From a virus, in IMG/VR virus record IMGVR_UViG_3300003629_000001: 64,000 bases of DNA. One strand, 5' to 3'. The translations under genes were made by a program, and so were the position numbers. The notes beneath the pieces were generated by a model. That model was not told the origin of the DNA. It ran no database searches and saw only the letters and a list, made by a program, of their open reading frames with translations. Positions 42,185 through 64,000 of this stretch are shown here, piece after piece (positions within the stretch are counted from its first letter, which is position 1; each line of letters opens with the position of its first letter).

Positions 42185-42765
42185 CATTCAATTGCCCTAC
42201 TTGTGGTGACGGGTTGCCTACAGAGTCAGGAATGAAGAAACACCACACTCGGGTACATGACGAATCTATCGCAACAACCGAGGTAGAGTGTCATTGGTGT
42301 GGAGATTTGACTACATATTCCGATTATGAACTCAATTACCGAGAAGAGTATTTTTGCTCTTCAGAGTGTCGGTATAACTGGCAATCGGAACAAATGGAAG
42401 GGCGTGAATGTGAATGGGCTGAAAAGATAGGCGAATCTAATAGGGGCAATGACGGAATGGTCGGTGACGAAAATCCACGCTGGAATGGTGGAAGGTGTAA
42501 TCGGACTGGGCCGAATTGGGCTACTCAAAGGCGTAAAGCGCTGAAAAGGGATTACCGGCAATGTCGGGTCTGTCAAATGGATAATGAGACTCACAAAGAG
42601 GAATACGGGAGAGAATTGAGTGTCCATCATAAGACCCCAAGGTCGTGGTTTTTGGACGAATACGAAGACGAAACCGAAGCACTCCGTAAAGCGAATCGGC
42701 TTTACAATTTGGTAACAGTGTGTCGAAAGCACCACCGAAATCTGGAATCACAGGTGGCACAATGA
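42181..42765 (+). CDS. C2H2 + HNH homing endonuclease
   Basis: CPTC...HHTRVH; ENPRWNGG; RD..CRVC...VHH...NLVTVCRKHH. Confidence 0.85.
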   Translation: MTFNCPTCGDGLPTESGMKKHHTRVHDESIATTEVECHWCGDLTTYSDYELNYREEYFCSSECRYNWQSEQMEGRECEWAEKIGESNRGNDGMVGDENPRWNGGRCNRTGPNWATQRRKALKRDYRQCRVCQMDNETHKEEYGRELSVHHKTPRSWFLDEYEDETEALRKANRLYNLVTVCRKHHRNLESQVAQ

Positions 42766-43478: not shown

Positions 43479-45518
43479 ATGAGCCAGCGTATAGAGAATC
43501 AGATACTCGCGGAGCGAGGATACGTGTGGCTCTCGAAGCAGGAGAACGAGTGGATTCCATACGTCGGGCCTGACGGTGGTGAAGGATGGCAACGTGTCGG
43601 TGACGACGAGGTGCGATACCAGCAACGACCGCCGGGAGAGACAGCCCAAGGTGTCGAAGAGAACTACTGGACTGACGATTTCGGCGCTGACGCACTTACC
43701 GAGTTCCTTTCAGAACGTCTTTCTGACGAGGATATGGGTCGTATCGGAGCGCGGGTTCAGGACGCCGCTGAAGCCATGAACTCCGATATAGACACCGAAG
43801 CAGGGTACGTATGGGGTCGTCTTCAGCACCGAGAAGAACGGTTCAATCAGCATTTGGGGGACGCGCCGGAAGGTGCGATAGTCGATTTAGTAGACAGTAT
43901 GCTTGGACGGCGAGAAGCGAAGTTCGCCCAGCGTCAGGAAATGGACGAACTCGCCATGCTGGTCGAAGATAACTCCGACATGGGAACCCGCGACAAACTG
44001 AATATCAGTGAAGCGGTGCGTGAAGTTCAGGACGATACCGACCTGACCGAAGAGGAACTTCGTCAAGACCTTTACGAAATGGTCGAAGACGCGGATATGC
44101 CAGCAGAGTACGTGCTGGATAACGCTGGCCTGAACGCGTGGAAAGACAGCAAACGGGCCGAGTGGCGAGACGAGAATCTGACTGGTGAAGACGCGATAGA
44201 AGTACCCGAAGGCCACGAAGGCGATATTACAGAGAGTGACGTTTTCGACGCGCTCAATCACACGTCGCTTTCCGGGTTCCAACTTCCGCTAAATGACCAC
44301 GACCCGATTCCCGCTGTCGCACAGGCTATGGAAGACCAGTTCGGGGACGACCCGAATAAGATGTACGACGAGATAGAAGCGTTCAACGGTGCTCTCGAAG
44401 GCATTCTCAAGCCGTTTAGTCAAACCAGTACGAACGCGCCGGAACACATGAACCCACAGAATGCCGACGAGGTGGGGAAACTGGATAAGTACACCGATAA
44501 GACCGGGCGGTCGTCTAGTTCCATGTTCGTTGCGAAAGGTGTCCCCGACGAAGACGGGAACAAGCGCGACCTGTATATCACGAACACCAACCGGAATCGG
44601 GAAGGGGCCTACGCACAAGACGACGCCGACGCCAACCGACAGATTCTCGGGTCGAACGGATTCCAAGCGGCGGGTTTTGATTCCCCTGACTCGTACCATG
44701 AACCGGGAGAGTTTTGGGCTGTCGAAGAGGCCCCCGGTGATACTGCTGACGAATTTCACGTCGAAAATGACCTTGACAATCCCGTAGAGCAATTCGCTGA
44801 ACTCGGAGCGGCGGCGGCTGTTCTCGGTGCATGGGACATTCACGAAGGGAACGTATTCATCCACGACGGCGAGTTCGTTCCAGTTGACATGGACTTGGCT
44901 GGTGCTGAACTTCACCACAGCGCCGACCACACGTTCAATCGGTATAACGCTGATTTGAATGGGTTCATGGGTCTATTTCCCCGTATGCAACGACTCTTTG
45001 ACCGCATGGACGGTGGTGATACTATCGACTTTGACGAGATAAAGCAAGCCACGAAACGTCGGGTGGCTGAAATGGGTGAGACGGGAGAGGCCAAGGAAAT
45101 CGCTGAAGCCGGAAAGAGCGACATTACACACTCAATCGGTCGGAACGTTGAAGCCAACGTTAGGGCTATTGAGAACCAGAACTACTTCGAGCGTTACCCA
45201 ACTGACGTGTTGGGAGTAAACGGATACGACGAAATGAGTGATTTCCGCGAGGGTCAGGTCGTAGAGGTGACAGAAGACGACCGAGAGCAAAGGAGTCAAG
45301 AGTTCGAGATTACCGAGACATACGACGACCACGTTGAAGTGACCGCCCTCGAAGACGGTGCGATTCTCGGTGAAGGTGAGCGGTGGAACGTTCACAACCC
45401 CGGTGAGATAACAGAAATCATCGACAGTGGGGGCGACGAAGAGGGCGACCCACCTGACCCGATTGACGCGCTCATGGACGAACTGGACGAGCGGCTGGAA
45501 GACGGTGATAGCGAATGA
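43479..45518 (+). CDS. tagged polyvalent protein 1: tag + helical region + HipA/PI3K-like kinase + SH3-like domain
   Basis: Tag at 43551; WDIHEGNVF...VPVDMD at 44835. Confidence 0.75.
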   Translation: MSQRIENQILAERGYVWLSKQENEWIPYVGPDGGEGWQRVGDDEVRYQQRPPGETAQGVEENYWTDDFGADALTEFLSERLSDEDMGRIGARVQDAAEAMNSDIDTEAGYVWGRLQHREERFNQHLGDAPEGAIVDLVDSMLGRREAKFAQRQEMDELAMLVEDNSDMGTRDKLNISEAVREVQDDTDLTEEELRQDLYEMVEDADMPAEYVLDNAGLNAWKDSKRAEWRDENLTGEDAIEVPEGHEGDITESDVFDALNHTSLSGFQLPLNDHDPIPAVAQAMEDQFGDDPNKMYDEIEAFNGALEGILKPFSQTSTNAPEHMNPQNADEVGKLDKYTDKTGRSSSSMFVAKGVPDEDGNKRDLYITNTNRNREGAYAQDDADANRQILGSNGFQAAGFDSPDSYHEPGEFWAVEEAPGDTADEFHVENDLDNPVEQFAELGAAAAVLGAWDIHEGNVFIHDGEFVPVDMDLAGAELHHSADHTFNRYNADLNGFMGLFPRMQRLFDRMDGGDTIDFDEIKQATKRRVAEMGETGEAKEIAEAGKSDITHSIGRNVEANVRAIENQNYFERYPTDVLGVNGYDEMSDFREGQVVEVTEDDREQRSQEFEITETYDDHVEVTALEDGAILGEGERWNVHNPGEITEIIDSGGDEEGDPPDPIDALMDELDERLEDGDSE

Positions 45519-48202
45519 CAGAAATTGTTCGAGTCTACGACCGTGACGGTGGCGAGTTGGAAGCAAAGGCTGACGTAGGCCCTGACGGACGCCTGATTCG
45601 GGGTGACGAAGACTTTGCTGAAATCGCTACTCGGTTCCTCGAAGAGCGGAGCGTGGACGAGATACTGACGTATCTGGACGGCCCGCATATGCTGGCTATG
45701 GCGATTGACGTGGACGGCTTAGACTACGACCCCGGCCTTCAAGAGAAAATGGAAGGTCGCCGCGCCGCAAAAGAGACACACCACGTTCCTCACAGTACCC
45801 CTATTGAGAATACCGAGAGAACTCATTGGCTCACCGAACCCCGACTCGGGAAAGTCGGTTGGTACGACAGTGATACCGGTGCGTTCCTCTACAGGGGGGC
45901 CAGCGCCCGCGTGAGTGAGTTGCTGAAGAGTGAAGGCCCCACCAGCGGACTCGAAGAGACACAAACGTCGCTGGTGGACTGTCAGGGGCCGTCCAGCAAC
46001 CTTCTCAAGCAAGACGACGGTCAGTGGATTCCGTACAAGGGGCCACAGGAAGGCGAGGGGTGGCAACAGGTCGGTTCCGGCGAGGTGCGATACCAACAAG
46101 AGCCACCCGGTGACGTAGCGGACGGACATGAGGCCGACCACTGGAAACAACGCTGGCCGGAGATTGAGGGCGCGGAGTGGAACGAAGACGTTCCACACCC
46201 GATTGACATGAAAGAGGAAGACGCTCTTCTCTTCGTCAATCGGAACGGCGAGTCGGAAGTGGGCCGTTTCGAGAGTGCGACATTCATTCGTGACGAGAGT
46301 TGGGATAGTGCGAAGACAGGCGTCACTCTCGCTGACGGTCGTCAAGTTCTGACTGACGACATAGCCGCTCATGCGGATATGACTATGGCGGTCGAACCAC
46401 CGAGTCTTCACGGTGACGAAGAGTGGGGTGACGCCCCCGGAGTCTATTCAGATTACATTCCGTGGAATCTCGTTCACTTTGTGGATTCTGACGGTGAAGA
46501 GCGAGTGGCTATGGTCGAAGGACACGCCGACGACCGGGGTGCGGTGAAGGTGCAAACCAACGAGGGATACACGGTCGTTGACCCGAGTAACATTACTCAC
46601 TACGCCGAGGTTGACCAGTTCTATAACGGCGCTTACGAAGTGCTGGATAGTCCCTTCCGTGGGATTCCAGAGATAGAAGACAACGAACAACCCCCGGACG
46701 AGAACTTTGCACAGCGTGTCGGAGTCACGGCTGACGACGTGAACGCCGCGTTCCGAATGGTTTTTGCACCCCACCTTGTGAGCGTGCTTGAAAACGAAAT
46801 CGAAGAGGGTGGGTACGACGCTGACGACCCGGACGACATAATTCAGGCTATCATCGACGTTCGTGGGTCTGAAGACGACACGACGTGGCAATCATTCAAG
46901 CGAGAACTTCGAGGGCGTTCTGTTGGAATCGGGAAGAGCCGGGCGGAACGTATTGTTAACGAAGCCTTTGCTGGCGAAACCCCCGACCCGAGTTTCGCTG
47001 TTCGTCAGGATATGGACAGGATGGACGACCCGGAAGAGTGGCTGAAACAAGCCGCCAAATTCGCTCACGAAGACGAGTTCGTGTCTATCGCTTCGTTACA
47101 GGACGCGGTGGACGAGTGGAAGGGTGACGGTGTTCCATTCAATCTCAAAGGAATCCACGACTTCGACGGTGAACCCGACGAGGTGGTAGCCCTATCAGAA
47201 ACCGGGACGAACACCGGAATCTCCGCCGGGGCCATGTTCATTGCGGACTGGCCGGACGGTAGTAGGGCGTTCGTCACTCGAATCAAGGATAAGGAAACGG
47301 GCCGACTTGTGTCTAACGACCACATGGAAACGTCCGAAGAGGCCGAACGGGCTATGACTGGCTTCGGGATTCAGAACGAACTGGCTCAAGACAACGAGTC
47401 GATTCAGGTTCCCGACCACACGTACTCAATGGACGAGTATTTCAGCGTGAAGGGCGCTCCCAACGACGCGATACTCGCTGACCAGTTCCTTGAGACGTTC
47501 CCGAGTCAGGACATGGAATTGCCGGACGGCCCGCCTGATACGGATATTGTAGAGTCGGTTGGTGCGACGGTCGAAGACGTACAACAAGCGTTCAGTGAAA
47601 CGGTATATCCGGGCTGGGAAGACCACAACGAGACGAAACAAATCTTCCACAGTGACGACAATTTGGACGAAGAGAACTCACAGGACTGGGTGGCTGTCGC
47701 CAAAATCCGTTATGATAAACCCGACCCACGAATTTGGAACGAGTTCGCCCGTGAACTCGCTGGGTCAGCCTACGAAACGCCGGTTGAACGTGAGACGTTC
47801 ATGGACATGGCGTTCGGAGCGGTCATGGCTGGCAACAAAGATATGCACTCGAATAACGTTATGGCGGATAATGAGGGAACCGTCTACCCAATCGACTTGG
47901 ACTTTGCTGGGTACGACATGACCAACAGCCGCAATTTGAGCGCCGCTATCGGGAAACTCGTCAGTACCGGTCAGGCACTCGGAATCGAACCCAGTGAAGA
48001 GTTCGAGGATAAGGGGAACCCCGACGCTTTTGACGACTCGCAACACCCATTAGCACACGAAATCCTCGCGTATATCCACGACAACGCGACCGAGGAAACT
48101 ACGGAGAAGGTTCGGAGTGGGAATCCGATGTGGCGAGACGGTGGGGCTGACAACGTTGCTCGGAACGCGGAAGCGGCAAAGAACGGAGAACTCGAACTAT
48201 GA
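45515..48202 (+). CDS. tagged polyvalent protein 2: DGP module + tags + SH3-like domains + kinase
   Basis: DGPH at 45677; tag at 46025; NKDMHSNNV...YPIDLD at 47840. Confidence 0.75.
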   Translation: MTEIVRVYDRDGGELEAKADVGPDGRLIRGDEDFAEIATRFLEERSVDEILTYLDGPHMLAMAIDVDGLDYDPGLQEKMEGRRAAKETHHVPHSTPIENTERTHWLTEPRLGKVGWYDSDTGAFLYRGASARVSELLKSEGPTSGLEETQTSLVDCQGPSSNLLKQDDGQWIPYKGPQEGEGWQQVGSGEVRYQQEPPGDVADGHEADHWKQRWPEIEGAEWNEDVPHPIDMKEEDALLFVNRNGESEVGRFESATFIRDESWDSAKTGVTLADGRQVLTDDIAAHADMTMAVEPPSLHGDEEWGDAPGVYSDYIPWNLVHFVDSDGEERVAMVEGHADDRGAVKVQTNEGYTVVDPSNITHYAEVDQFYNGAYEVLDSPFRGIPEIEDNEQPPDENFAQRVGVTADDVNAAFRMVFAPHLVSVLENEIEEGGYDADDPDDIIQAIIDVRGSEDDTTWQSFKRELRGRSVGIGKSRAERIVNEAFAGETPDPSFAVRQDMDRMDDPEEWLKQAAKFAHEDEFVSIASLQDAVDEWKGDGVPFNLKGIHDFDGEPDEVVALSETGTNTGISAGAMFIADWPDGSRAFVTRIKDKETGRLVSNDHMETSEEAERAMTGFGIQNELAQDNESIQVPDHTYSMDEYFSVKGAPNDAILADQFLETFPSQDMELPDGPPDTDIVESVGATVEDVQQAFSETVYPGWEDHNETKQIFHSDDNLDEENSQDWVAVAKIRYDKPDPRIWNEFARELAGSAYETPVERETFMDMAFGAVMAGNKDMHSNNVMADNEGTVYPIDLDFAGYDMTNSRNLSAAIGKLVSTGQALGIEPSEEFEDKGNPDAFDDSQHPLAHEILAYIHDNATEETTEKVRSGNPMWRDGGADNVARNAEAAKNGELEL

Positions 48203-50751
48203 TAGTGTTTTACCGTCTCGAAGGTCGGGACTACAACGAAATCGGGCGTGTCGAAGACGGCGAAATCGTAGACGGCGAAGAGGAACTGGCTGGTATCGTT
48301 CACCCGCCGAACCTCTCCGACGAAGACGAACTACTCGCCGCTCATGACGGCCCACATATTCTCGCCCAAATGGAAGACGAGTCGCCCGGCGAGGGTGGTA
48401 CTGACGCTAATTCTGATAGGGGTACTGAAAAGTGGGTTCCATACACCAACGGCGACGAACGTGGGTGGATTAGTGCCAGCACTGGCGAGAAGAAATTCAC
48501 CGAGGAGGCCCCCGGCCCGATAGTGAAAGGCTTCGAGGAACAGGCGGAAAACTGGACGGAAGTAAAGACGTTGAATAAGGAGTGGATTCCGTATCAGGGG
48601 CCGCACGGGGGCGAAGGGTGGCAAGAGGTGGAGACTGGTGAGGTTCGCTACGTCGAAGAGCCGCCGGGGCGAGTTGGGACAGGTGATGGCGCTCCGCCCA
48701 GTGACGGCATGACGCCTGAAGAACGGGCGTGGCTGGAAGAGCATGGCGACCCGGAAGCACTGTCGGAGTTGGAAGAAGAGGCCCCTGACGGCACGACAGA
48801 AACGAGTGAAGAGATTACGTGGGACAACGTAGCCGCCGGTGACGAAATCGCCTACTACGATGACTACGGCGAACTACAGCAGGGAGAGGTAACTGCTGTT
48901 GAACAGGACGCGTTCGGTGTGATATGGGTTCAGGACGGTCACGGCAAATCGCCAGTCGAAGAAGAGGATTTCATTGGCACGCCGGACGACAAGATTGGCG
49001 ACGGACTCGAAGCACCTGACCACGCTGGCGCTGACTGGTTCGACAATAACCTGTTCTACGGTCAGACTATCAAACTCTACAACAAAAACACCGACATGGT
49101 GGAATACGCGGACGTAGAGAGTATCTTCGTTGCGGGTGGTGAAATCAACGCTGTCGAACTTGAAGTTCAGAATCAACGTGGATTTGGCGACCTTATTACT
49201 ATCACGAACGACGACATAGACTGGCATGACCAAGACGATAACGGGAAGTACGAAATACGAGAGACGAGTCGCTGGTCGGATTTAGAAAAGGACGAGCAAA
49301 TTGACGCTGTGAGACGTTCTTACCGTGAAAATACTCGTCTTGAGACGATGGGTCGGGCTACGCGGCAAAATCTGAATGACGATATTTCTGAAGATATTAT
49401 CCCCTCGTTTAAGGACATGAACGTCGCCCGTGAGACATTCAAGTCACTCTTCAAAATCGGGAACAAGGTATCCCGAGCGAGTTGTAGCGGAACGGGGAGT
49501 GTTTCAATCAAGGTGTCAGAACGAGCGCCTATCGACACGACGAGACACGAATTTGGACACGCTATCGTCAGTTCGTTCGGATATAATTACAAGAATCGTT
49601 ACAAAAATAGCAATTTCTCTGACGAGAAGTACAGGCGGCGTCCGACGAATTTGTCTCACGAGTATCATGACCTGAAGACCCGGTACGATACCATAGCGTT
49701 CGATTTCAGCGAAGATTCAGATTTCTTTGCCCCCGAAGACTATATGCTTCAGGATACCGACAACGACGGCGAGTTTGTAGACTTTGATTTTGACGAAATA
49801 GAGGCTGGAAGGAACATATACATCGAGCCGTCCGATACCTTCATGTCGAATGAGTCATACGAAATTGAGTCAGTTGGTGAAATGGAAGACGGTAAGTTAG
49901 AAATCCACACCAGTATGGCTCAAGACGCCTATGTTGATAGAGAGGGGACTGTCTATCAGTACGATTCGTTCGGTGGTGGATGGGAAGAGGTTGGGGAAGC
50001 AACCGCATTCACTCAAGAGAAACTACCGCACGGATTCGACGCGTGGAAAGACGCTGTAGAGGAAGAGGTTCACGGAGAAACCGATTTGGAACAGAGGGAG
50101 TACGAGAATACCGAGGGTATGTCGCCCAAAGACGTGTTCGAGTCGGTTGATAAGGGCGACGTAGTTCGGTTCCAGCACGAAGACAAGACGATTCACCTTA
50201 TTGCTCAAGAGAAAGAAAACCTCTCTCAAGAAGACCGGCGTGATTATGAGTTCGTTCACCCCGGCGACGGTTCACAGTGGAATTTCACCGTACAGAGTGA
50301 CAACGGTGAACTTCAGTTCTCTGACCACATTGTTACTGGGTACGACGATACATACGGCGAAGAAGACGGGGACAGCCCGAACGTGGATAATCCTCTTGAG
50401 AACTGGGAAGGGTTTGAGCCAAACCCTGAAACCACTGAACAGAGAATAGATAATTTAGTGTCAGCCGTGAACCGTGCGTGGTACAAGCAAGCCAAAATGT
50501 TCGAGAACGACCCTGCTGATTTCGGTAACAGCGCTTACAGTATTGGGTCGGGATACTCGGCCACAAATGCTCAAGAGACAATGGCGAAAACTCATGAGGT
50601 TTTACAGAACGGCGACCAGTTGGCAACCTCGCATTTGATTGAAGAACATCCGTATCTGGTTGCGGCTTATGTAGAACTGTTTGAGCCGCACTTGTACGCT
50701 AAAAAGGCGATTCATCGTCATGGCGGGGAAGAGTACGGGATAAAAGTATGA
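48199..50751 (+). CDS. tagged polyvalent protein 3: DGP module + 2 tags + zincin metallopeptidase
   Basis: Tags at 48433 and 48583; HEFGH at 49546; YSATNAQETMA at 50554. Confidence 0.7.
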   Translation: MIVFYRLEGRDYNEIGRVEDGEIVDGEEELAGIVHPPNLSDEDELLAAHDGPHILAQMEDESPGEGGTDANSDRGTEKWVPYTNGDERGWISASTGEKKFTEEAPGPIVKGFEEQAENWTEVKTLNKEWIPYQGPHGGEGWQEVETGEVRYVEEPPGRVGTGDGAPPSDGMTPEERAWLEEHGDPEALSELEEEAPDGTTETSEEITWDNVAAGDEIAYYDDYGELQQGEVTAVEQDAFGVIWVQDGHGKSPVEEEDFIGTPDDKIGDGLEAPDHAGADWFDNNLFYGQTIKLYNKNTDMVEYADVESIFVAGGEINAVELEVQNQRGFGDLITITNDDIDWHDQDDNGKYEIRETSRWSDLEKDEQIDAVRRSYRENTRLETMGRATRQNLNDDISEDIIPSFKDMNVARETFKSLFKIGNKVSRASCSGTGSVSIKVSERAPIDTTRHEFGHAIVSSFGYNYKNRYKNSNFSDEKYRRRPTNLSHEYHDLKTRYDTIAFDFSEDSDFFAPEDYMLQDTDNDGEFVDFDFDEIEAGRNIYIEPSDTFMSNESYEIESVGEMEDGKLEIHTSMAQDAYVDREGTVYQYDSFGGGWEEVGEATAFTQEKLPHGFDAWKDAVEEEVHGETDLEQREYENTEGMSPKDVFESVDKGDVVRFQHEDKTIHLIAQEKENLSQEDRRDYEFVHPGDGSQWNFTVQSDNGELQFSDHIVTGYDDTYGEEDGDSPNVDNPLENWEGFEPNPETTEQRIDNLVSAVNRAWYKQAKMFENDPADFGNSAYSIGSGYSATNAQETMAKTHEVLQNGDQLATSHLIEEHPYLVAAYVELFEPHLYAKKAIHRHGGEEYGIKV

Positions 50752-51734
50752 GACTCATAATCACCAACAACAACGACGAGGAACTGGGCGAGATACGGTC
50801 GAATTTCGAGTTCGAGGCTGATATTCCGTTCGAGGATAAGGAACGGATTCGAGCGCTCATGCGTTCAGCGAAGAAATTCGCTATGGACGTAGGGCCAGTT
50901 GAACGCTCCGGGGGCGCGGATGAACGCGAACTAATTACCCCCGGCGAAGAGGTCGTGGAGTTCGAGACGGACGAAGCACTTCCACGCGTCAAGGTCGCTA
51001 TTGACCGAATGACTCGGTATCATGCTGTCCTCGAAGAGACGGAAGAGCGTGAAGCAATCAAGGCTGTTGACGCTCCGTTCAACGCCCCGGATGGAAAGGA
51101 AGTACACGAAGGGCCGCCCGGATTCTTCTACTACAACGTCAGTAAGGATACTGAAGAATCAGGGGATGGTGAGGTGTTGGAAGTTCGGGATTACTACCGA
51201 GTGTGGGTCAACGACCAAGATAGCGTTCCTGACGACAGCATGGCGCTCTACGACGAAGAGGGCGACCCGGCTGGAAATCACTGGTACTACGAAGTACCGT
51301 TCGAGACGAAGACGCGAATCAATCTTTCCGAGCATGAAGTTGACCCGTCGAATGTGATAGAAAAGGACGCTGACGTTGAACTCTCACCTGACGAACTGAA
51401 CGAGTACGGTATTTGTAAGTCGGATAACGAACGGATACAGGAAGCCAGTGAAGCCGTTGAAAAAGGTGAGCCGGTGTGGGGCGATACTCATTCGGTGAGT
51501 GGGGCTGTTCTCAAGTCAGTAGAGTGTCCGTCGGTGTTGCTCTGTCTCTATAAGTTGTTTCACAATGCTGGCGACGAGTACACCCAATATCTCCCACCGA
51601 TTCAAACTGAACTCAATCACCGTGGCGTCAAGGCGATAGATAAAATTACACGGAAGAAGCGAGATTTCGGTCAAGCGACCGACGACGTGACGCTCGAAAA
51701 GAGCGGCGATTGGCTTGAGTTCGAGCGAGAGTAG
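50748..51734 (+). CDS. modular hypothetical protein of the array
   Basis: ATGA-coupled to the peptidase gene; contains APDGKEVHEGPPGFFYY. Confidence 0.6.
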   Translation: MRLIITNNNDEELGEIRSNFEFEADIPFEDKERIRALMRSAKKFAMDVGPVERSGGADERELITPGEEVVEFETDEALPRVKVAIDRMTRYHAVLEETEEREAIKAVDAPFNAPDGKEVHEGPPGFFYYNVSKDTEESGDGEVLEVRDYYRVWVNDQDSVPDDSMALYDEEGDPAGNHWYYEVPFETKTRINLSEHEVDPSNVIEKDADVELSPDELNEYGICKSDNERIQEASEAVEKGEPVWGDTHSVSGAVLKSVECPSVLLCLYKLFHNAGDEYTQYLPPIQTELNHRGVKAIDKITRKKRDFGQATDDVTLEKSGDWLEFERE

Positions 51735-51804
51735 TTTAACCGGTTCTTCCCGAAAGGTCTTACAGTAGGGGTATCAACAGTATTAACAAGAGGCCACTAT
51801 CCCC

Positions 51805-52602: not shown

Positions 52603-52607
52603 CTGTA

Positions 52608-56741: not shown

Positions 56742-59700
56742 CAGTAGTTGTATATGAACTGAACGACGACGCGGAGTACGAGGAACTGGGTAGCCATACC
56801 GACCAAGAGGCCGTGGAGAACGACGACCTACTGGATATTTTTCCTGAACAGGTGTGGCAAGACCACTCCGACGAATGGCTCTCCGAGCGGATTGACGGCC
56901 CTTACGTCATGGCCGCAATTCAGGACGAAGACTCCGAGACGACAGAGAAAATCAGTATGTGGACACCCTACGTCGGCCCGAACGGTGGCGAGGGCTACCA
57001 ACATATGCTGACTGACGAAGTTCGTTACGTGGACGAGGAACCCACTGACGACGAAGCACCCGGCAATGACGTTGACGTAGACGAACCCGAGAGCGGTGAA
57101 CTGAACGAAATGACCGGGATTTCGGACGCGTCGTATATTGAAGACAATCTTCCGGTCACGGCGACGTGGGAGAATGACGACGGTGAATCATTCGTTGGTC
57201 AAATCGAAGAGGTGGATTACGGCGGCTTTGACGAGAAGTTTGTAATTGCCGCTACCAACGGACGGCGCTACGAGGTGAATGGTGACGATTTGACCGGGTA
57301 TATCGAACCCACGCCGGAATACAACCCGGAAAGTGACGAGGAAGACGGACGGATTCGGGACGGATTCGAGCGGATAAAGGAAAAACTTGGCGAGGGTGTG
57401 ATTCCACCGCGTCCAACTCCCAATATGGGTAATGGTGGCTCTCGTCCCGAACAGAGCGATTTCCGACAAATCGCGTCGGAAGACGACGCCGAGAAACTAC
57501 AGCAGATTATCGACACTGGCGACACTGGGAATATTCAGGTCGGAATCGAAGCCGTCGGTGACGGAGTAGACTACGGCCCGTGGGACGCTGATACGGATAA
57601 TCTCAATTACTTCGACGGCGGTCAGTTCACGAACATCGACGTGGAAATGCCGGTCGAAGATTTCCTTGCCACACAAACGGATATGTTGTCGTCTGACCGG
57701 AACCATCCACAAGAAGCCTACGAGTCGTTCCACCGAGTTCGGACTGACGACGTAGAAGAGTACGCCGAGGTGTTACAGAACGAACCGGGTGAAATGCCCA
57801 TGCCGTACATTGAGTTCGGTCGCAACGGCAATATGCGGAACTCACAGGAAGGCCGACACCGCGCTCTCGCGGCGCGTATGGCTGGGTTAGATACCATGCC
57901 GGTTCGGTTCGTTCTAAACCCCGACCGCGACGGAAAAGGCGCTGAAGACCGTGTTGACTGGGGTCAGGATTTGAGTAAGCCGGTGGAGAAACGCACAAAG
58001 TGGCGTCCATATCTCGGCCCGCGTGGTGGTGAAGGCTGGATTAAGCCGTTCAGTTTCACCGACGACAAAATTGTCTACGACGAAGAACCACCGGGTGAAG
58101 TATCGCCGGAGTACAGCGAGGATTACTGGCACGACCGCCCGTCTCCGGTCAACGAAGATATTGTTAATTTGGTGGATTCGCACCTCGAAGGCGTTCGAGC
58201 GCGTCCGTACAAGTTGGACGAACCGACAGCGGATTTCTTCGAGGAAGGACTGGAAGCCGGGTATCACCCGAACGCCGTTTCCGAAGCCGCTGAATGGAAA
58301 CTGAAAAGCATGGAAAAGGAGATTGGGGACGGTGGGCGACTCGAAGAGAACGACGTTCAGAAGGTACTCCGAGACGCCGCTACCCAGTTCCTTGACCGCC
58401 AAACCGAGCAAGAGATAGAGATAGAAGGTGGCAAACGAGGTGGTGGGGTTATCTCTCTCGGTGAAATTGACAACAACTTCAAACGAGACTGGTGGGATAA
58501 CTTCGAGTCTGAAATAGGCTACACCGACGACCAAATGACGAACGAGAAGCCTGCTTACAGTGCTATTCGCAACTGGTCTATCACCAGTAGTATGTTCAGT
58601 CAGTCTACAGCGCCACTAATCAAAGCGGCCATGCGAGAGAGCGACAACGATTTCATTCCGGTCAACGGCGAAGAGGTGCGTGAGACAGACGTAACCGACC
58701 GAGAAATCGAACACGTTCTCGAATACAAAGAGGCCATGACTGAACTGTACCGGAGCGTCTACGGTGACACGGTTCCGTGTTTCCGTGGCATTGACGGTCA
58801 GAGTAGTCAAATCGACGGAATGCGCGAAGATATACAGGAAGGCAAGGGTATCGAACTTCCTGAAGCCACCCTCTCTTCGTGGGCGACGGAACCCGGAACC
58901 GCCATGCGATTCGCCGGGAGCATCCACACTGACGGCTACAGCGAAGGTGGTGTCGTGATTCGTCAAGAGGTTCCGGTTGAACAACTATTCGTGACTGGCG
59001 ACACTCACCCCGGCCTTCTTAATAACGAGAACGAACTTGTTGTTAACGCGCCGGAACCCGAGACGCGCTACGAACCCGACAACCTGATTCTCCCGAGTGA
59101 GACGACAGCACTCGAACAGGCGGTGTGGGCGGCGGAACGTGCTAATAGGGATACTGACGTGAGCGAGGAAGCCGCGAAGGCTGTCCAGCGAGCGCTCCTT
59201 TCCAAACAGGAAATGAACCAGTACGCTTCAATCGCAATCGAAAACTACGATTGGTTCCGTCAGACTGTCGGTGAGCAAACCCAACCCGACATTAAGTCGA
59301 AAGAGTGGATTCCGTATGAAGGGCCACGGGGCGGTGAAGGGTGGCAAAATACGGAAGACCGAGACGATATTCGATATGGGCTGGAAGACCCGCCCGGTGA
59401 AGTGGCCGAGGGGTACGAAGACATGGCCGAAGACTGGGGGGCGGGAGAAGACGCTGTAGAAATCCCCGAGAAGTTCGAGGGAGAGTACGCCCCGGAAGAC
59501 ATTACGCCGATTCCCGGCGACCCTGCTGAATGGGGTGACGAGTTCCCAATTAGTGAAGGACAGACACTACTCGGTCAAAATTGGGAATGGGATATAGAAA
59601 ATCTCTGGTTCCAAGGTAGCGATACACACGTTCCTGAACCTCGAATGGAATTAGCAATTCCGACTGGTGTTAGTCACAAATTTGGTTACGTATCCGATTC

Positions 59701-62700
59701 CGTGAAGTTACAGGGTATGGAACCCGGTTGGTTCAAGAATCCGGCTATCCCCAGCAAGCAAAACAAGCAAGAGTTCGTCGGAGTCGTCGGAGAACCTGAA
59801 CCACGAGATATGAGTTTCAACCCGACTGGTGAAGCGGCGAATGCTTCGTTTGATTTAGACGAAGCGGCTGAAAGAATGAGTCAGGAGATTCGTGACCGCA
59901 ATTCGTGGGAAAACAAAAAGGCTGGAATTTACGCGGCTGAACTAATAGAAGAGCATGACCCGAGTTACGAAACGCTACTCGCTATCACTCGTTACGGGCT
60001 GGAATCAAATGGTCAGAGTATAAACGAAGACCGCGATATAGACGACGCTCAAGAAATTGTCTTGGACGGTATCGACCAACACCTTGACAATGAAGCACCT
60101 GACCACCCCACGCTCAAGGGCAAACTGTCGTTAAGTCACGCTGACCCCGAATTGACCGAAGATTTCATGAGTCGTATGACACCCGATACCCGAGAGACTG
60201 TCAATACGGCTATGGGTGAATGGATTCGTGGTCAGGGGAGTATGGTGGACGAGTACACACTTCCAATTTACCGACTGGCCGCTCACACCTACGAGAACGA
60301 TTTCTACCCGACGCGTGGTGACGTAGGGAAACTCATTGCGGAAGCCGACGACGTGGAAGCCGCTGACAGTCTCGAAGTTCGTCAAGAGAGGCTGGAACGC
60401 TATCGTCAAAAGACCGTAGAGACGTTCCGTGAAGTGTTCGGTGATACCGTTCCGGTGTTTCGTGGCTACGACCCCGGTGAACAATCCAAAGGTAAAGAAG
60501 CACGGGAAGCGCTACAGGCTGAAGACGCCCCGTCAGAGATAGAGATTCGTAATGGTGTGGCGAACTCATGGTCTACAAACCCGACCGTCGCATTTCAGTT
60601 TTCGACGTGGAATACCGAAGATTACCCCGGTATTGTTGTCCGCCAAGAACTCCCCGTTGAACAAATATTCGGGTCGTCTGATACCACTACCAGTGGTCGG
60701 TCTGACGAAGCGGAAATCGTTGCTGGCAATCCTGAAGAGTACACTAACCACAGCCGCGACGACGTATTCCTTCCCGAAGAGTTCGACCCGATTGAGCAAA
60801 TGCGGTGGGCGCTTTCGGGTATCGAAAATGACGCCAGTGAAGAGGAAGAGAAGGCTGACGGGGAAACGCTATCACTTGACTGGGAACTCGAATCGGTTGA
60901 CTGGCTACGTCGTTACCGGAAGATGGAAGACGCACTCACGAAAGAAAACTGGACTCCTATAGACGTAGGCGACCAGAGAGGCTACCAGCACGTCGTCAGC
61001 GGAGAGACGATAGTATCCAAGGCTGGTATCCCGTTCAGCAACACGGCGCGTCAGGCGGGCCACACGCCGCTGTCAGCGGTGGTTATGGACTCCGACGCAC
61101 TGGGGAAAGAGTGGGTTCCATATCACGGCCCACGGGGCGGTGAAGGGTGGCGGAATACAACGACCGAGAATATCCGCTACGGACTGGACGAAGCACCGCG
61201 CCCAGCCGAGAACGACCCCGACGAACTCACCGAAGAGAACATCGAAGAGGCTGATATTCAACAGTCGTTCGGCCTCATGCAAACTACAGCCAACGACTTG
61301 GTAGAAGGTGAGAAACTACACTTCGAGGTTCAAGGCCACCCCTACGAAACCCGCGTTCAGGAAGTGACCGACGACGCGATTCACGCGATAGACACCGAGA
61401 CGCACCGCGAGTTCGAGATTCCGACCGACGAGCGAGGAATGGCCGAAAGCGGGCTAACACTGGCTTCGCCACAAGCGGTATTCTTCGGCCACGGTATCGC
61501 TGGGTCGGAGTCGTCGTGGCTACCCGAGGAAGACGAACCGAGTCAGATAGAACTCGAAGCCGAAGCGCTTCGTTCCGCCGCGTCCACCGACGGATTCGGT
61601 GATACCAGTTACATTGAAGGCTTCGCCGCACGGGCGAGTGAACTCGGTGCTGGACGTGACGAGATTACCAACGCGATTCACGGCGCTCTCGAAGAACACC
61701 CCGCACTGAACACGGATTTGGCCGACGAGATTTACGAGAACGGTCAGCGGCTATTGGAAATCGAAGAGTCGCTGACGGACAAGTCACTCGCTCGCTCCTA
61801 TCCCATTACCCCTATCAGGACTATGCGGAAGGAGTGGATTCCGTACCGTGGCCCACAGGACGGAGAGGGCTGGCAAAACGTCAACAATCCCGACGACATT
61901 CGATACGGACTCGAAGACCCGCCCGGTGAAGTGGCTGAAGGCTACGAAGAACAGGCGGAAGACTGGGGGCCGAGTAGCGACGAGGAACCCGACCGAGTTC
62001 AGGGCGCGACCCTCGTAGACTACAACATTCCGGGGAGCGACAAGGACATTCAAGTCCCGAAAAACTTCACGGCTGACGACTTGAAGAACACCATTCGGCG
62101 GTTCCGAGACGACAACGAAGGCGACCTACTCACGGAACTGGCGAACGTCGTTCAAATGCAAAACGACGGCAACCTAAACGACAAGATGGACGTGCTTCAT
62201 GGCACGGCTGAAGTGCTGGGGAACCACCCGGAGATTATCGACCAGTACAACGACCTGCTACACGAAGAGATAGCCGATACTCCAAACGCCAACTTCGACG
62301 TACCATTCGGCTTCGACGGTGTGGACGTTCACAATATGCTGGAAGACACCTTTGGCCCCCACAGTGAGATTGTGGGTGAACTCGAAGATATGGTTCTGTT
62401 CGGGGACGTGGACGAAGAAAAAGCCGACAACTGGATTACCGCCGCCGAAGGCTGGATTCGTAACTACGGCGACCGGAAAATGGCGGACAAGTTCAAGGAT
62501 ACCATAGCCGACGCGGAGTTGGCGAATCCGTTCTCAAACACCGACGAGTACGCCGCACAGGAAGAGATTAGCGACGACCTAAACCCAGCAAAAGCGTCCC
62601 GAGTTGTGCCTATTTCGGATACTGAAGCGTCTACGGGTATCAGCGCTGACAGTATGTTCATAGCCGAGTACGACGACGGACACCGAGCATTCGTCACCAA

Positions 62701-63319
62701 CACCAGTCACCACCGCTCGGAGCGGATTGACGAGGTACGGAATCAAGGCGAGGAAGACGCCGAGCGGGCTATGGCTGGCTACGAAGCCTTCAAGGCCGCT
62801 GGTATGGACGTTCCTCGCCACGAACGGCTCAAGACGGAATACTGGACAGTTGAAGAGGCTGACGGTCAACCAGCGAGGGAGTGGGGCGGTGAACCGGACG
62901 AAGCCATGCGTGACCAGTTCGCTAAACTCGGCGCTGTCGCCATGCTCTCGGGGAACTGGGATATGCACGGTGGGAACGTCTTCGTGACCGAGAACGGTGG
63001 TCTGATTCCAGTTGACCTTGACTTGTCGGGTCACGATATGCAATCCCGCGACTGGAAGCACACGTCGTGGGGGCGACTCAAGAGTTTGGGTCGAACGCTG
63101 AATATGTACGAGGTGAGAGGTGACGATAACGAAGTTCTCGAACTCAAGCGAGACGTGGCCCGTGCGACACAGGAACTAATCGAAGACGGAACAGCCGACG
63201 ATATAAAGAGTATGGCGTCCAACGTGGATAATAAGGATATTCAAATGGCTATCGAAGAGAACGTCTTCGCCGCCAAAGGTGGGCGGCTCTACGACGACAG
63301 AGTGCGGGGTGACGAATGA
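56738..63319 (+). CDS. tagged polyvalent protein 5 (2193 aa): DGP module, 6 tags, ParB-like domain, 2 ARTs, kinase
   Basis: Tags at 56960, 58001, 59306, 60950, 61112, 61835; EGRHR at 57848; FRG/SSW/ENE and FRG/SWS/EAE; NWDMHGGNV...PVDLD at 62960. Confidence 0.8.
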   Translation: MTVVVYELNDDAEYEELGSHTDQEAVENDDLLDIFPEQVWQDHSDEWLSERIDGPYVMAAIQDEDSETTEKISMWTPYVGPNGGEGYQHMLTDEVRYVDEEPTDDEAPGNDVDVDEPESGELNEMTGISDASYIEDNLPVTATWENDDGESFVGQIEEVDYGGFDEKFVIAATNGRRYEVNGDDLTGYIEPTPEYNPESDEEDGRIRDGFERIKEKLGEGVIPPRPTPNMGNGGSRPEQSDFRQIASEDDAEKLQQIIDTGDTGNIQVGIEAVGDGVDYGPWDADTDNLNYFDGGQFTNIDVEMPVEDFLATQTDMLSSDRNHPQEAYESFHRVRTDDVEEYAEVLQNEPGEMPMPYIEFGRNGNMRNSQEGRHRALAARMAGLDTMPVRFVLNPDRDGKGAEDRVDWGQDLSKPVEKRTKWRPYLGPRGGEGWIKPFSFTDDKIVYDEEPPGEVSPEYSEDYWHDRPSPVNEDIVNLVDSHLEGVRARPYKLDEPTADFFEEGLEAGYHPNAVSEAAEWKLKSMEKEIGDGGRLEENDVQKVLRDAATQFLDRQTEQEIEIEGGKRGGGVISLGEIDNNFKRDWWDNFESEIGYTDDQMTNEKPAYSAIRNWSITSSMFSQSTAPLIKAAMRESDNDFIPVNGEEVRETDVTDREIEHVLEYKEAMTELYRSVYGDTVPCFRGIDGQSSQIDGMREDIQEGKGIELPEATLSSWATEPGTAMRFAGSIHTDGYSEGGVVIRQEVPVEQLFVTGDTHPGLLNNENELVVNAPEPETRYEPDNLILPSETTALEQAVWAAERANRDTDVSEEAAKAVQRALLSKQEMNQYASIAIENYDWFRQTVGEQTQPDIKSKEWIPYEGPRGGEGWQNTEDRDDIRYGLEDPPGEVAEGYEDMAEDWGAGEDAVEIPEKFEGEYAPEDITPIPGDPAEWGDEFPISEGQTLLGQNWEWDIENLWFQGSDTHVPEPRMELAIPTGVSHKFGYVSDSVKLQGMEPGWFKNPAIPSKQNKQEFVGVVGEPEPRDMSFNPTGEAANASFDLDEAAERMSQEIRDRNSWENKKAGIYAAELIEEHDPSYETLLAITRYGLESNGQSINEDRDIDDAQEIVLDGIDQHLDNEAPDHPTLKGKLSLSHADPELTEDFMSRMTPDTRETVNTAMGEWIRGQGSMVDEYTLPIYRLAAHTYENDFYPTRGDVGKLIAEADDVEAADSLEVRQERLERYRQKTVETFREVFGDTVPVFRGYDPGEQSKGKEAREALQAEDAPSEIEIRNGVANSWSTNPTVAFQFSTWNTEDYPGIVVRQELPVEQIFGSSDTTTSGRSDEAEIVAGNPEEYTNHSRDDVFLPEEFDPIEQMRWALSGIENDASEEEEKADGETLSLDWELESVDWLRRYRKMEDALTKENWTPIDVGDQRGYQHVVSGETIVSKAGIPFSNTARQAGHTPLSAVVMDSDALGKEWVPYHGPRGGEGWRNTTTENIRYGLDEAPRPAENDPDELTEENIEEADIQQSFGLMQTTANDLVEGEKLHFEVQGHPYETRVQEVTDDAIHAIDTETHREFEIPTDERGMAESGLTLASPQAVFFGHGIAGSESSWLPEEDEPSQIELEAEALRSAASTDGFGDTSYIEGFAARASELGAGRDEITNAIHGALEEHPALNTDLADEIYENGQRLLEIEESLTDKSLARSYPITPIRTMRKEWIPYRGPQDGEGWQNVNNPDDIRYGLEDPPGEVAEGYEEQAEDWGPSSDEEPDRVQGATLVDYNIPGSDKDIQVPKNFTADDLKNTIRRFRDDNEGDLLTELANVVQMQNDGNLNDKMDVLHGTAEVLGNHPEIIDQYNDLLHEEIADTPNANFDVPFGFDGVDVHNMLEDTFGPHSEIVGELEDMVLFGDVDEEKADNWITAAEGWIRNYGDRKMADKFKDTIADAELANPFSNTDEYAAQEEISDDLNPAKASRVVPISDTEASTGISADSMFIAEYDDGHRAFVTNTSHHRSERIDEVRNQGEEDAERAMAGYEAFKAAGMDVPRHERLKTEYWTVEEADGQPAREWGGEPDEAMRDQFAKLGAVAMLSGNWDMHGGNVFVTENGGLIPVDLDLSGHDMQSRDWKHTSWGRLKSLGRTLNMYEVRGDDNEVLELKRDVARATQELIEDGTADDIKSMASNVDNKDIQMAIEENVFAAKGGRLYDDRVRGDE

Positions 63320-64000
63320 CCGTCACCTTCTACGAACTCGGTGAAAACGACTACACCGAAATTGGTCGTATCCACGACGGAGAAATCGTAGACGGCGAAG
63401 ACCAACTGGTCGCAATCGGCGCTGACCAGTTCGCGGACAACGAAAAGAAACTACTGAACGTCTACGATGGGCCGTACATCGTTGCTGGAATTGGGACGCC
63501 TAATACCCTTACTCAAAAGTCGGACAAGGCACTTCGGAAGAGCGTCGAAACAGTCTTCAAAGACTGGATTCCCTACGAGGGGCCACAGGGCGGGGAAGGC
63601 TGGCAAAACACCCTGACAGGCGAAATCCGCTATCAGGAAGGGAAGCCGAGTGGCGCGGGAAGTGACGCCGACGTTACTGTCCCCGGCAACTCTACGATAC
63701 AGACTGTCTCGGCGGCTATCACGTCAGTCCTCGGCGCGACAGTCATGCAATCGCTCAAGCAACAGGCGACCGGTGGCGGTGGGTCATTCAACCCACAGAC
63801 GTTCGTGACCGCCGCCGCCATGTATATCGCACAGACTGGTAAGGGGTCGCTCGGAGAACTACAGGAAGCGTTGGATACCGAAGCCGAGAGCGAACCCGAA
63901 GACGCTCAAGACGTGACGATTCAGACCGAGAGTGGCGAAATCGAATCTACGACTCAAACGGGTGTCACCGACGTAACGAGCGCGATTACACAAGTCTCGT
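63316..64000 (+). CDS. tagged polyvalent protein 6 (runs off the window; absent from the ORF track)
   Basis: ATGA overlap; manual translation MTVTFYELGENDYTEIGRIHDGEIVDGEDQL...YDGPYIVAG...VFKDWIPYEGPQGGEGWQNTLTGEIRY. Confidence 0.8.
   Translation, partial: MTVTFYELGENDYTEIGRIHDGEIVDGEDQLVAIGADQFADNEKKLLNVYDGPYIVAGIGTPNTLTQKSDKALRKSVETVFKDWIPYEGPQGGEGWQNTLTGEIRYQEGKPSGAGSDADVTVPGNSTIQTVSAAITSVLGATVMQSLKQQATGGGGSFNPQTFVTAAAMYIAQTGKGSLGELQEALDTEAESEPEDAQDVTIQTESGEIESTTQTGVTDVTSAITQVS

What the first reader, a model, noticed from the sequence alone, without database searches (positions are those of the whole stretch)
45515..63490. Conserved ~60-aa DGP(H/Y) N-terminal module follows every kinase gene: candidate cognate immunity protein fused to the next polyprotein
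Seen: the ORFs starting at 45515, 48199, 56738 and 63316 begin with a homologous module, M-x-(V/I)-x-Y-x-(L)...(E-I/L-G)...DG...DGP(H/Y)(I/V/M)xA. The copies at 48199 and 63316 share EIGR..DGEIVDGE..L. Each lies directly after, and ATGA-overlaps, a gene containing a kinase domain (4 of 4). The genes not preceded by a kinase gene (43479, 50748, 52608) lack it. Known: polymorphic toxin loci place the immunity gene immediately downstream of the toxin. Inference: the module inhibits the upstream kinase during virion production and is clipped off at the Lys before the next tag, giving a daisy-chained toxin-immunity design.
Basis: partly seen in the sequence, partly recalled or inferred. Interest (0 to 1): 0.88.

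Follow-up and report, generated by a model that had tools for sequence, protein, structure and literature searches.

The report
Small domain always following viral kinases
In an uncultured virus of salt-loving archaea and its relatives, every gene ending in an unusual kinase-like enzyme is followed at once by a gene that starts with the same new 60-residue domain; the pairing is real and strict, and the domain most likely binds and restrains the kinase, though no experiment has tested this.

Summary
The window is part of a 146-kb uncultured haloarchaeal tailed virus. After terminase and portal comes an array of large acidic "cargo" proteins carrying a repeated WIPYxGPxGGEGW tag. Four ORFs (45515, 48199, 56738, 63316) start with a homologous ~62-residue "DGP" module. 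Each overlaps by ATGA the stop of an ORF whose last domain is an atypical kinase-like domain.

Across the window and related metagenomic loci there are 29 non-redundant kinase-to-DGP junctions, 33 non-kinase junctions without DGP, and no discordant junction. The module always sits at residue 1. No tag ever follows a kinase in the same ORF.

About half of 94 family representatives are free-standing proteins of 58-116 residues. Six of eight sampled lie right after a kinase gene, so the fused form is secondary. The module folds confidently on its own (pLDDT 88) and matches no Pfam family or solved structure.

A predicted kinase-DGP complex gave only weak support. Binding, and especially inhibition, are inferred. 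Clipping at a Lys is unsupported.

Exceptions exist: two orphan DGP homologues without a kinase, and the isolate HHTV-1, whose altered internal kinase has no DGP.

The scan noted the same pairing from an overlapping window of this genome.

The parts
44454..45191 (+). Kinase-like domain 1, in ORF 43479-45518; about 107 further residues follow it before the stop
   Evidence: Kinase profile E 3e-69; catalytic motif at residue 453
45515..45718 (+). DGP module 1, N-terminus of ORF 45515-48202; ATGA overlap with the stop of ORF 43479
   Evidence: DGP profile E 5e-17; junction read
47165..48199 (+). Kinase-like domain 2 (carries a ~100-residue insert), C-terminus of ORF 45515-48202
   Evidence: Kinase profile E 3e-82
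48199..48390 (+). DGP module 2, N-terminus of ORF 48199-50751 (tag, then an HEFGH metalloprotease-like region); ATGA overlap
   Evidence: DGP profile E 4e-26; junction
55380..56069 (+). Kinase-like domain 3, in ORF 52608-56741; about 222 further residues follow it
   Evidence: Kinase profile E 8e-63
56738..56938 (+). DGP module 3, N-terminus of the 2193-residue ORF 56738-63319 (five tags); ATGA overlap
   Evidence: DGP profile E 1e-23; junction
62585..63316 (+). Kinase-like domain 4, C-terminus of ORF 56738-63319; this one was modelled
   Evidence: Kinase profile E 3e-91; AlphaFold model pLDDT 88.6; fold matches
63316..63510 (+). DGP module 4, N-terminus of ORF 63316-> (778 residues in full, P0005; runs off the window); ATGA overlap; this one was modelled
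   Evidence: DGP profile E 1e-27; model pLDDT 88.4, pTM 0.71; junction
46016..46141 (+). First WIPY tag after DGP module 1
   Evidence: Motif scan; tag profile
48574..48699 (+). WIPY tag after DGP module 2 (a degenerate copy lies at 48424-48549)
56951..57076 (+). First WIPY tag after DGP module 3
63556..63681 (+). WIPY tag after DGP module 4

Best explanation
The kinase-like domain and the DGP module form a conserved two-polypeptide cassette.

The kinase is the last unit of a tagged protein. That protein is presumed, from its position between portal and head protease, to be capsid cargo. The DGP module is made from the very next start codon by termination-reinitiation at ATGA. It folds as an independent small beta-beta-beta/alpha/beta domain.

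The module most likely binds the newly made kinase domain and keeps it inactive in the producing cell, like an immunity or antitoxin protein. The ancestral form is a free-standing protein of about 65 residues. In this virus its stop codon has been lost, so the module now sits on the N-terminus of whatever cargo gene comes next.

Shown: the strict adjacency, the N-terminal-only position, the existence of the free-standing form, the autonomous fold and the kinase fold. Inferred: binding (weakly supported), inhibition, toxicity of the kinase, and release of the kinase on packaging or ejection.
For: 1. Adjacency: 29 non-redundant kinase-to-DGP junctions, 33 junctions without either, 0 discordant, in the window plus metagenomic and IMG/VR loci. 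Kinase identities fall as low as 16-30%.

2. Separate chains: among 94 true family representatives the module always starts the protein. In 34 distinct kinase ORFs no tag follows the kinase (14 are multi-tag ORFs; naive chance 1e-5). So the kinase/DGP boundary always coincides with a stop-start junction, and kinase-DGP fusions are never seen although DGP-cargo fusions are common.

3. Free-standing form: 47 of the 94 representatives are 58-116 residues long. All eight looked up are complete genes. Six of the eight sit directly after a kinase ORF, followed by a separate tagged gene (L050, L051, L052, L053 partial, L056, L057; also L005/L006:15470).

4. Fusion partners are arbitrary: ART, MuF, HD+DUF192, metalloprotease, kinase. 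Module divergence tracks the upstream kinase (Mantel r 0.63-0.71, p 2e-4) more than its own tag (r 0.39).

5. Autonomous confident fold: pLDDT 88.4, pTM 0.71.

6. Complex prediction, kinase plus cognate module: verdict 'weak support'. ipSAE was 0.00, 0.53 and 0.54 (median 0.53); the best of 3 controls was 0.00. In the tool's calibration the mark was reached by 58 of 80 solved complexes and 2 of 110 mismatched pairs, but at 0.60 or under by only 7 of those 80 and by both mismatches. Runs agree in at least 14% of contacts; partner pLDDT is at least 68.

7. Precedent: hipIN and hipJS modules have a core Hip kinase followed by a downstream gene whose N-terminal HipS-like domain is the putative antitoxin, fused in HipN to a HIRAN domain (PMC8262856). 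HipS blocks HipT sterically (PMC10627512). MuF phage toxins have immunity genes downstream (PMC5576092).

8. HHTV-1, the one isolate with this kinase, has Gly in place of the otherwise invariant second Asp and has no DGP anywhere in its genome.
Against: - No direct evidence of inhibition or of kinase toxicity.
- The complex score is weak, and one of three runs scored 0.00.
- The kinase family has no conserved beta3 lysine (F-x-T instead), so it may not be a conventional or active kinase.
- In the fused form both kinase and module carry tags. If both are packaged, an inhibitor would travel with its target unless it is cleaved off or degraded, and nothing shows that it is.
- Two homologues (L054 tandem pair, L055) occur with no kinase nearby.
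- The module has no detectable similarity to any known inhibitor. The HipS resemblance is Z 3.1, which is not significant.
- Most junctions come from related viruses, so the counts overstate independence.
Confidence: 0.45

Rival explanations
1. The module is a required subunit of the kinase supplied in trans: an activator, specificity factor or fold-completing piece, as the N-subdomain is to HipA. It is delivered with the kinase, by its own tag when fused or by riding on the kinase when free-standing.
For: The same adjacency, coupling and weak binding prediction fit this equally well. Co-packaging of the fused forms makes more sense for a cofactor than for an inhibitor. The kinase core aligns to HipA and HipT without their N-subdomain 1 / HipS part. 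HipS chains rank 2 and 5, and the HipA N-subdomain 45, of 48,161 chains for the module, but at Z 2.5-3.1.
Against: Obligate subunits are often found fused to their enzyme. Here kinase-DGP fusions are absent in 34 kinase ORFs and 94 module representatives. The orphan copies lack a kinase. Z 3.1 is within noise, and there is no sequence link to HipS or Couple_hipA.
Confidence: 0.2
2. The module is a docking adaptor. By binding the kinase domain of the preceding protein it strings cargo proteins into a non-covalent chain, or lets untagged proteins ride along, for ordered packaging or ejection. The kinase-like domain serves mainly as the docking platform.
For: In this virus the module sits on the next cargo protein, giving K1:D2-K2:D3 type links. 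The missing beta3 Lys allows a pseudokinase reading. From general knowledge, phage P1 internal head proteins depend on one another for incorporation.
Against: Half the family is free-standing with no cargo attached, so there is nothing to tether. The five catalytic-type residues are invariant at 16-30% identity, which argues for chemistry rather than a mere platform. Cargo genes that follow non-kinase genes need no such adaptor.
Confidence: 0.12
3. There is no protein-protein relation. The pair stays together only because it is inherited and duplicated as one block, or because the module's coding start helps reinitiation after the kinase stop.
For: Most junctions come from related viruses. Adjacent genes share history, which alone gives correlated divergence. 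The complex support is weak.
Against: Flanking cargo on both sides is shuffled while the junction is kept. The module is fused to many unrelated partners and also stands alone. It has a conserved, confidently folded protein structure with 94-96% conserved Gly/Pro/Ala positions. Other ATGA junctions in the array, such as 48199/50748, do without it.
Confidence: 0.08
4. The module is the kinase's substrate: a phospho-acceptor domain that marks the next protein.
For: Adjacency and coupling only.
Against: No Ser, Thr or Tyr is conserved in the 94-member alignment. The best aromatic columns are 45-48% Tyr and look like core positions.
Confidence: 0.03

Closest known systems
Hip kinase modules with a downstream HipS-like antitoxin (hipJS, hipIN; HipS-HipT of HipBST)
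   Same: A core kinase of the HipA/PI3K-like part of the kinase superfamily is followed by a gene whose N-terminal small domain is the (putative) neutraliser. In HipN that domain is fused to an unrelated C-terminal domain, as the DGP module is here (PMC8262856). HipS inhibits HipT by steric block at the Gly-rich loop (PMC10627512).
   Different: No sequence match of the kinase to HipA_C above threshold (best E 0.008, 4 of 23 members) and none of the module to HipS. The fold match of the module to HipS is Z 3.1, not significant. The module is ~62 residues against ~103. The context is a virus structural-gene array, not a cellular toxin-antitoxin operon, and there is no HipB-like DNA-binding partner. 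HipL shows kinase-HipS fusions, which are absent here.
MuF and other polymorphic toxin-immunity pairs (phage MuF toxins, CDI, Rhs, colicins)
   Same: The toxin domain lies at the C-terminal end of a multi-domain delivered protein, the immunity gene lies immediately downstream, and orphan immunity genes occur (PMC5576092; general knowledge of polymorphic toxins). The array here ends in a MuF-like gene in the relative L006.
   Different: The kinase ORFs carry no MuF domain. The candidate immunity is fused to the next delivered protein, which is not described for those systems. Toxicity and protection are untested.
Polyvalent proteins of phages and conjugative elements
   Same: Very large multi-enzyme proteins (ART, kinase, peptidase, ParB-like) encoded near the head genes and thought to be delivered with the DNA (PMC5512222).
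   Different: That survey found few in archaea, and its kinase clade has lost the C-terminal lobe. Here the C-lobe is present. No dedicated small partner domain for the kinase is described there.
Capsid-targeted internal proteins of T4 (targeting sequence, Alt) and the P1 Dar proteins
   Same: Enzymes packed in the head through a short tag, made late and used in the next cell (general knowledge).
   Different: No cognate inhibitor or partner domain is known for them. The tag here is a ~40-residue internal repeat rather than a short cleaved N-terminal peptide.

Membership tests
Protein-kinase-like superfamily (atypical: PI4KII / CtkA / Rio / actin-fragmin kinase / CotH / HipA group) | Two-lobed kinase fold | tested here: met
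   Model pLDDT 88.6. VIA-align Z 13.3 (rmsd 4.0, 211 aligned) to 4pla, 12.6 to CtkA 3akj, 12.5 to Rio2 1tqi. Foldseek gives 377 hits at E <= 1e-3.
Protein-kinase-like superfamily (atypical: PI4KII / CtkA / Rio / actin-fragmin kinase / CotH / HipA group) | Catalytic loop D-x-H-x-x-N and a metal-binding Asp after it | tested here: met
   D126, H128, N131, D144 and D146 are invariant in 23 sequences with 16-59% identity to the modelled domain.
Protein-kinase-like superfamily (atypical: PI4KII / CtkA / Rio / actin-fragmin kinase / CotH / HipA group) | ATP-anchoring Lys in strand beta3 | tested here: not met
   No Lys or Arg is conserved in the N-lobe. The strand reads F-x-T in at least 80% of members.
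HipA/HipT kinases (Pfam HipA_C) | Match to the family profile above its cut-off | tested here: not met
   Only 4 of 23 members hit HipA_C, best E 0.008, below threshold. CotH scores better in 2 members.
HipA/HipT kinases (Pfam HipA_C) | Closest structural neighbour is a Hip kinase | tested here: inconclusive
   HipA Z 10.9 and HipT Z 10.7, behind PI4KII, CtkA, Rio, AFK and CotH by 1-2.5 Z units.
HipS-like antitoxin domain | Sequence or fold relation to HipS / HipA N-subdomain 1 | tested here: inconclusive
   No Pfam or PDB sequence hit. VIA-align Z 3.1 (rmsd 3.5, 49 aligned) to 7ab3_B, 2.9 to 7vkb_B and 2.5 to 5k98_A, tied with many RRM and Ig rows.
HipS-like antitoxin domain | Encoded next to its kinase | tested here: met
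   29 of 29 non-redundant junctions.
HipS-like antitoxin domain | Neutralises the kinase | not testable with these tools
   Needs co-expression and kinase assays.
Polymorphic toxin-immunity pair | Immunity gene immediately downstream of a C-terminal toxin domain | tested here: met
   The kinase is always the last tag-delimited unit (0 of 34 with a later tag). The module starts -4 to +52 nt from the stop, mostly as an ATGA overlap.
Polymorphic toxin-immunity pair | Immunity protein binds its toxin | tested here: inconclusive
   Complex prediction verdict 'weak support': median score 0.53, best control 0.00.
Polymorphic toxin-immunity pair | Toxin is toxic and immunity rescues | not testable with these tools
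   Needs experiments.
MuF polymorphic toxins | N-terminal MuF domain on the toxin protein | tested here: not met
   No Phage_Mu_F hit in any of the window's array ORFs at E <= 0.1. MuF is a separate or C-terminal element in relatives.

The most novel reading that the evidence does not exclude
The cargo proteins of these archaeal viruses are wired into a non-covalent daisy chain. Each virion-delivered kinase is clamped by an inhibitor domain built into the N-terminus of the next cargo protein. Packaging, ejection through the tail, or proteolysis then both orders the cargo and switches the kinases on only in the newly infected cell. This would be a toxin-immunity logic repurposed for timing inside a virus particle, using a domain family and a Lys-less kinase family not described before.
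Probability: 0.15. Interest if true: 0.85.

Novelty: new variant of a known kind. Interest (0 to 1): 0.62.

Why it matters
Little is known about what archaeal viruses carry into the cell besides DNA. Here a new atypical kinase family and a new small domain family are locked together in a large effector array of hypersaline viruses. The genetic signature is as clean as that of well-studied toxin-antitoxin pairs.

If the module is an inhibitor, it would be a kinase-immunity pair in archaeal viruses, where I know of none described. It would also be an example of an immunity domain fused to the next delivered protein. If it is a cofactor or docking piece, it bears on how virion cargo is assembled. 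Either way it gives a compact pair of parts (a ~240-residue kinase domain and a ~62-residue module) that can be expressed and tested directly.

Tried and rejected
- tblastn of the module and of ORF 43479 against 50,697 phage records found no match. Further module queries (P0109, P0043) and the L057 kinase also found nothing useful.
- The search for related loci with the module or kinase alignments failed for lack of a conserved 7-10 column stretch. The tag alignment worked instead.
- The tag gave no hit in 185,579 species genomes, so no provirus or host was found. No whole genome is held for the window.
- Pfam scans of the module (47 members) gave only scattered single hits. The PDB sequence search gave nothing.
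- Foldseek of the module against PDB gave no hit at E <= 1e-3. The ESM Atlas gave only Ig-like and miscellaneous rows near TM 0.5. BFVD gave one unnamed 76-residue viral protein, R4T5L2 (TM 0.62, E 0.055), which I could not trace to a genome.
- I considered that the start of ORF 50748 is a fifth, diverged module following the metalloprotease gene. This was rejected (hhalign probability 0.2%).
- I considered the module as a phospho-acceptor. This was rejected because no Ser, Thr or Tyr is conserved.
- Profile search of the HHTV-1, HVTV-1 and HCTV-5 genomes for the module found nothing rang, and the tool warns that an empty answer without a positive control shows little.
- treekit's careful tree of the module did not finish in time. 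A nearest-neighbour count was used instead.
- Cluster look-ups gave no names or hosts for ten representatives.
Full report
**What the window is.** The + strand carries a terminase large subunit (38000-39457; Pfam Terminase_6N E 4e-12), an HNH gene, and a portal-like gene (40025-42184; Phage_portal E 3e-5, below cut-off). A DUF192 gene follows (42720-43475; E 4e-26). Then comes a run of tightly packed, very acidic ORFs: 43479, 45515, 48199, 50748, 51805, 52608, 56738 and 63316.
- The only nucleotide similarity to sequenced viruses is a 116-151-base stretch of the terminase gene, 79-83% identical to Haloarcula viruses HVTV-1 and HCTV-16.
- The window's last protein is 778 residues in full and lies on a 145,854-base contig.
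- No host genome is held.
- In the cultured druskaviruses HVTV-1 and HCTV-5 the same genome position, between portal and head protease, holds large proteins annotated as zeta toxin, ParB nuclease, ADP-ribosyltransferase and gpF-like. The array here is therefore the counterpart of a known, little-studied "big head-module protein" region.

**The observation.**
- Profiles built here find the module at exactly those four places in the window.
- The kinase-like domain is found in exactly four ORFs: 43479, 45515, 52608 and 56738.
- Each module's ATG overlaps the TGA of the kinase ORF.
- ORFs 43479, 50748 and 52608, which do not follow a kinase ORF, lack it. The superficially similar start of 50748 is not related.

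**The kinase.** An AlphaFold model of the last kinase domain is confident (pLDDT 88.6). It matches atypical protein-kinase-like enzymes:
- PI4KII-alpha Z 13.3, CtkA 12.6, Rio2 12.5, actin-fragmin kinase 12.1, CotH 11.7, HipA 10.9, HipT 10.7 (Foldseek).
- Sequence profiles reach only sub-threshold PI3K, HipA_C and CotH matches.
- Across 23 sequences sharing 16-59% identity with the modelled domain, D-x-H-x-x-N and D-x-D are invariant.
- There is no conserved beta3 lysine; the strand reads F-x-T. Another first-stage note on this genome said the same.

It is therefore a new family of the kinase superfamily. It is probably catalytic, but its chemistry is unproven.

**Related loci.** A word-based protein search found relatives of the module-bearing proteins, all from metagenomes. 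One of them carries module, tag and a Pfam-recognised ADP-ribosyltransferase. Their contigs (L001-L004) already showed the same rule. A scan with the tag alignment brought 4 IMG/VR loci and 41 metagenome loci.
- Every kinase ORF whose 3' end lies inside its contig is followed by a module-starting ORF, -4 to +52 nt from its stop and mostly by ATGA overlap. Two diverged copies were seen only by eye (L022, L028).
- Every module hit has a kinase-ORF stop directly upstream, apart from one at a contig edge.
- Counting consecutive feature-bearing ORFs and removing near-duplicates gives kinase-to-module 29, kinase-to-none 0, none-to-module 0 and none-to-none 33 (Fisher p 2e-18). The pairs share ancestry, so the p-value overstates independence. 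The kinases are nonetheless as little as 16% identical, and the flanking cargo differs.
- A weak, partial, internal kinase-like hit in L042 has no module after it.

**Position rules.** A profile search of 1.84 billion representative proteins found 101 hits at E <= 1e-3. Two of them are the window's own proteins.
- Of the 99 others re-scanned, 5 are repeat-protein false positives. In the other 94 the module starts the protein (within 27 residues of the called start).
- In 34 distinct kinase ORFs no tag ever follows the kinase, although 14 of them have two to five tags before it.
- So the kinase always closes a polypeptide and the module always opens one. Module-cargo fusions are common; kinase-module fusions are absent.

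**The free-standing form.** 47 of the 94 representatives are 58-116 residues long, and by nearest neighbour the short and long forms are intermixed. I looked up eight short ones, and all are complete genes.
- Six lie directly after a kinase ORF, usually followed by a separate gene that starts with its own leader and tag: L050, L051, L052, L056 and L057. L053 is at a contig edge, where only a kinase-like C-terminal helix motif is visible upstream.
- L005/L006 carry a 331-residue kinase gene, then a 79-residue module gene, close to a MuF-like gene.
- Fused partners are unrelated to one another: ART, DRAT-like ART plus MuF, HD plus DUF192, metalloprotease, or another kinase.
- Pairwise divergence of modules correlates with that of the upstream kinases (r 0.63-0.71). 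It correlates less with the tag that follows in the same protein (r 0.39), though the tag is short.

The unit is therefore kinase plus module, and the fusion to the next cargo protein is secondary.

**The module itself.** It is predicted with confidence as an independent domain of three strands, short helices and a final strand (pLDDT 88.4, pTM 0.71).
- The best-conserved positions are two Gly turns, a Pro and an Ala (94-96%). No Ser, Thr or Tyr is conserved.
- It has no Pfam family, no PDB sequence match and no significant fold match.
- In the exhaustive structural search the top rows are all about Z 3. Among them are HipS of E. coli HipBST (rank 2), HipS of Legionella (rank 5) and the N-subdomain of HipA (rank 45). 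That is a lead, not a result.

**Does it bind the kinase?** The single complex job (kinase alignment plus module alignment) returned 'weak support'.
- Scores were 0.00, 0.53 and 0.54 (median 0.53); the best of three controls was 0.00.
- In the tool's calibration the mark was reached by 58 of 80 solved complexes and 2 of 110 mismatched pairs. At 0.60 or under it was reached by only 7 of those 80 and by both mismatches.
- Runs agree in at least 14% of contacts, and partner pLDDT is at least 68. No interface was reported.
- Given the strong genomic prior this nudges towards binding. It says nothing about inhibition.

**Exceptions.**
- Two of the eight free-standing homologues have no kinase nearby. 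L054 has two tandem module genes after about 800 bases without an ORF. L055 has a module gene between a metallophosphatase gene and an AAA ATPase gene. They are the most diverged members sampled.
- The cultured virus HHTV-1 has the kinase-like domain (E 2.5e-24) inside its 1100-residue gp13. A metalloprotease-like region follows in the same chain. The otherwise invariant second Asp is Gly. No module match was found anywhere in that genome, and its small downstream gp14 does not match the profile.

**Mechanism.** I favour a cognate kinase-binding regulator that is inhibitory (0.45). It would be made by coupled translation right after the kinase, holding it off in the producing cell. Three things weigh for this:
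- the strict need for two separate chains;
- the immunity-like position after a C-terminal enzyme domain;
- the precedent of Hip kinases followed by HipS-like putative antitoxins that can be fused to other domains (PMC8262856, PMC10627512), and of immunity genes after MuF phage toxins (PMC5576092).

Three things weigh against it:
- inhibition and toxicity are untested;
- the kinase is unorthodox;
- in the fused form the supposed inhibitor would be packaged with its target unless it is removed.

That Lys is present in about half of all tags, whether or not a module precedes them. The rivals are a cofactor supplied in trans (0.2), a docking adaptor (0.12), mere linkage (0.08) and a substrate (0.03).

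**Novelty.** Both families are uncatalogued and known only from metagenomes. The survey of polyvalent proteins noted few such proteins in archaea and describes a different kinase clade (PMC5512222). The logic resembles known toxin-immunity and Hip kinase modules, so I class it as a new variant of a known kind. The same pairing was also noted by first-stage readers from an overlapping window of this genome ('5 of 5'), but not on other DNA.

Noticed in passing
window 48199-50751 and 50748-51734: ORF 48199 carries an HEFGH zinc-metalloprotease-like motif and a C-terminal region resembling the C-terminus of HHTV-1 gp13. The next ORF (50748) also overlaps by ATGA and has a conserved orthologue in L001, but is not a DGP module. 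It might be a partner of the protease.
   Followed up: partly
window 52608-56741, 56738-63319, and P0005 (63316 onward): Several regions show an R...S-x-S...E-x-E pattern typical of ADP-ribosyltransferases (for example FRG...SSWAT...NENELVV). Pfam did not call them in the window's proteins, though it did call ART in the relative P0011.
   Followed up: partly
window 57700-57900 (ORF 56738, residues ~360-400): A ParB/sulfiredoxin-like 'GRHR' stretch seen by eye between the first and second tags. Cultured druskaviruses annotate a ParB nuclease domain in the equivalent protein. Not tested.
   Followed up: no
window 42720-43475; L002:118-2043; P0039: DUF192 is free-standing in the window but fused to tagged cargo in L002 and sits inside a 1391-residue module-bearing protein (P0039). 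So DUF192 is probably part of the same cargo set.
   Followed up: partly
window 39460-40023 and 42181-42765: Two Cys-rich HNH-type genes flank the portal gene. The first is a Pfam HNH hit. The second has no Pfam hit but a similar Cys/His pattern.
   Followed up: partly
P0018, P0050, P0068, P0085, P0099; L058 (HHTV-1 gp13); L006:12570-13565: Other viruses use variant tags in the same position, such as EGPRGGxYYE and NPxLHPRGPDGKFVERP(W/Y). This suggests one broad family of short cargo motifs, of which the WIPY tag is a member.
   Followed up: no
L054:805-1235 and L055:3051-3251: Orphan DGP homologues without a kinase: a tandem pair, and one between a metallophosphatase gene and an AAA ATPase gene. 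They could be decoys or defences against incoming kinases, or a second function of the fold.
   Followed up: partly
L059 (HVTV-1 genes 115-116): In HVTV-1 the 1313-residue 'zeta toxin' protein is followed by an overlapping 153-residue ORF that shares the tag-like region with the L006 kinase ORF. The layout looks parallel: a kinase-type toxin followed by a small gene.
   Followed up: no
window 45200-45518 and 56100-56741: The two kinase ORFs that do not end at the kinase carry small C-terminal repeats that look like SH3- or Tudor-like beta domains (for example FxEGQxVxV...). A similar piece recurs in several cargo proteins.
   Followed up: no
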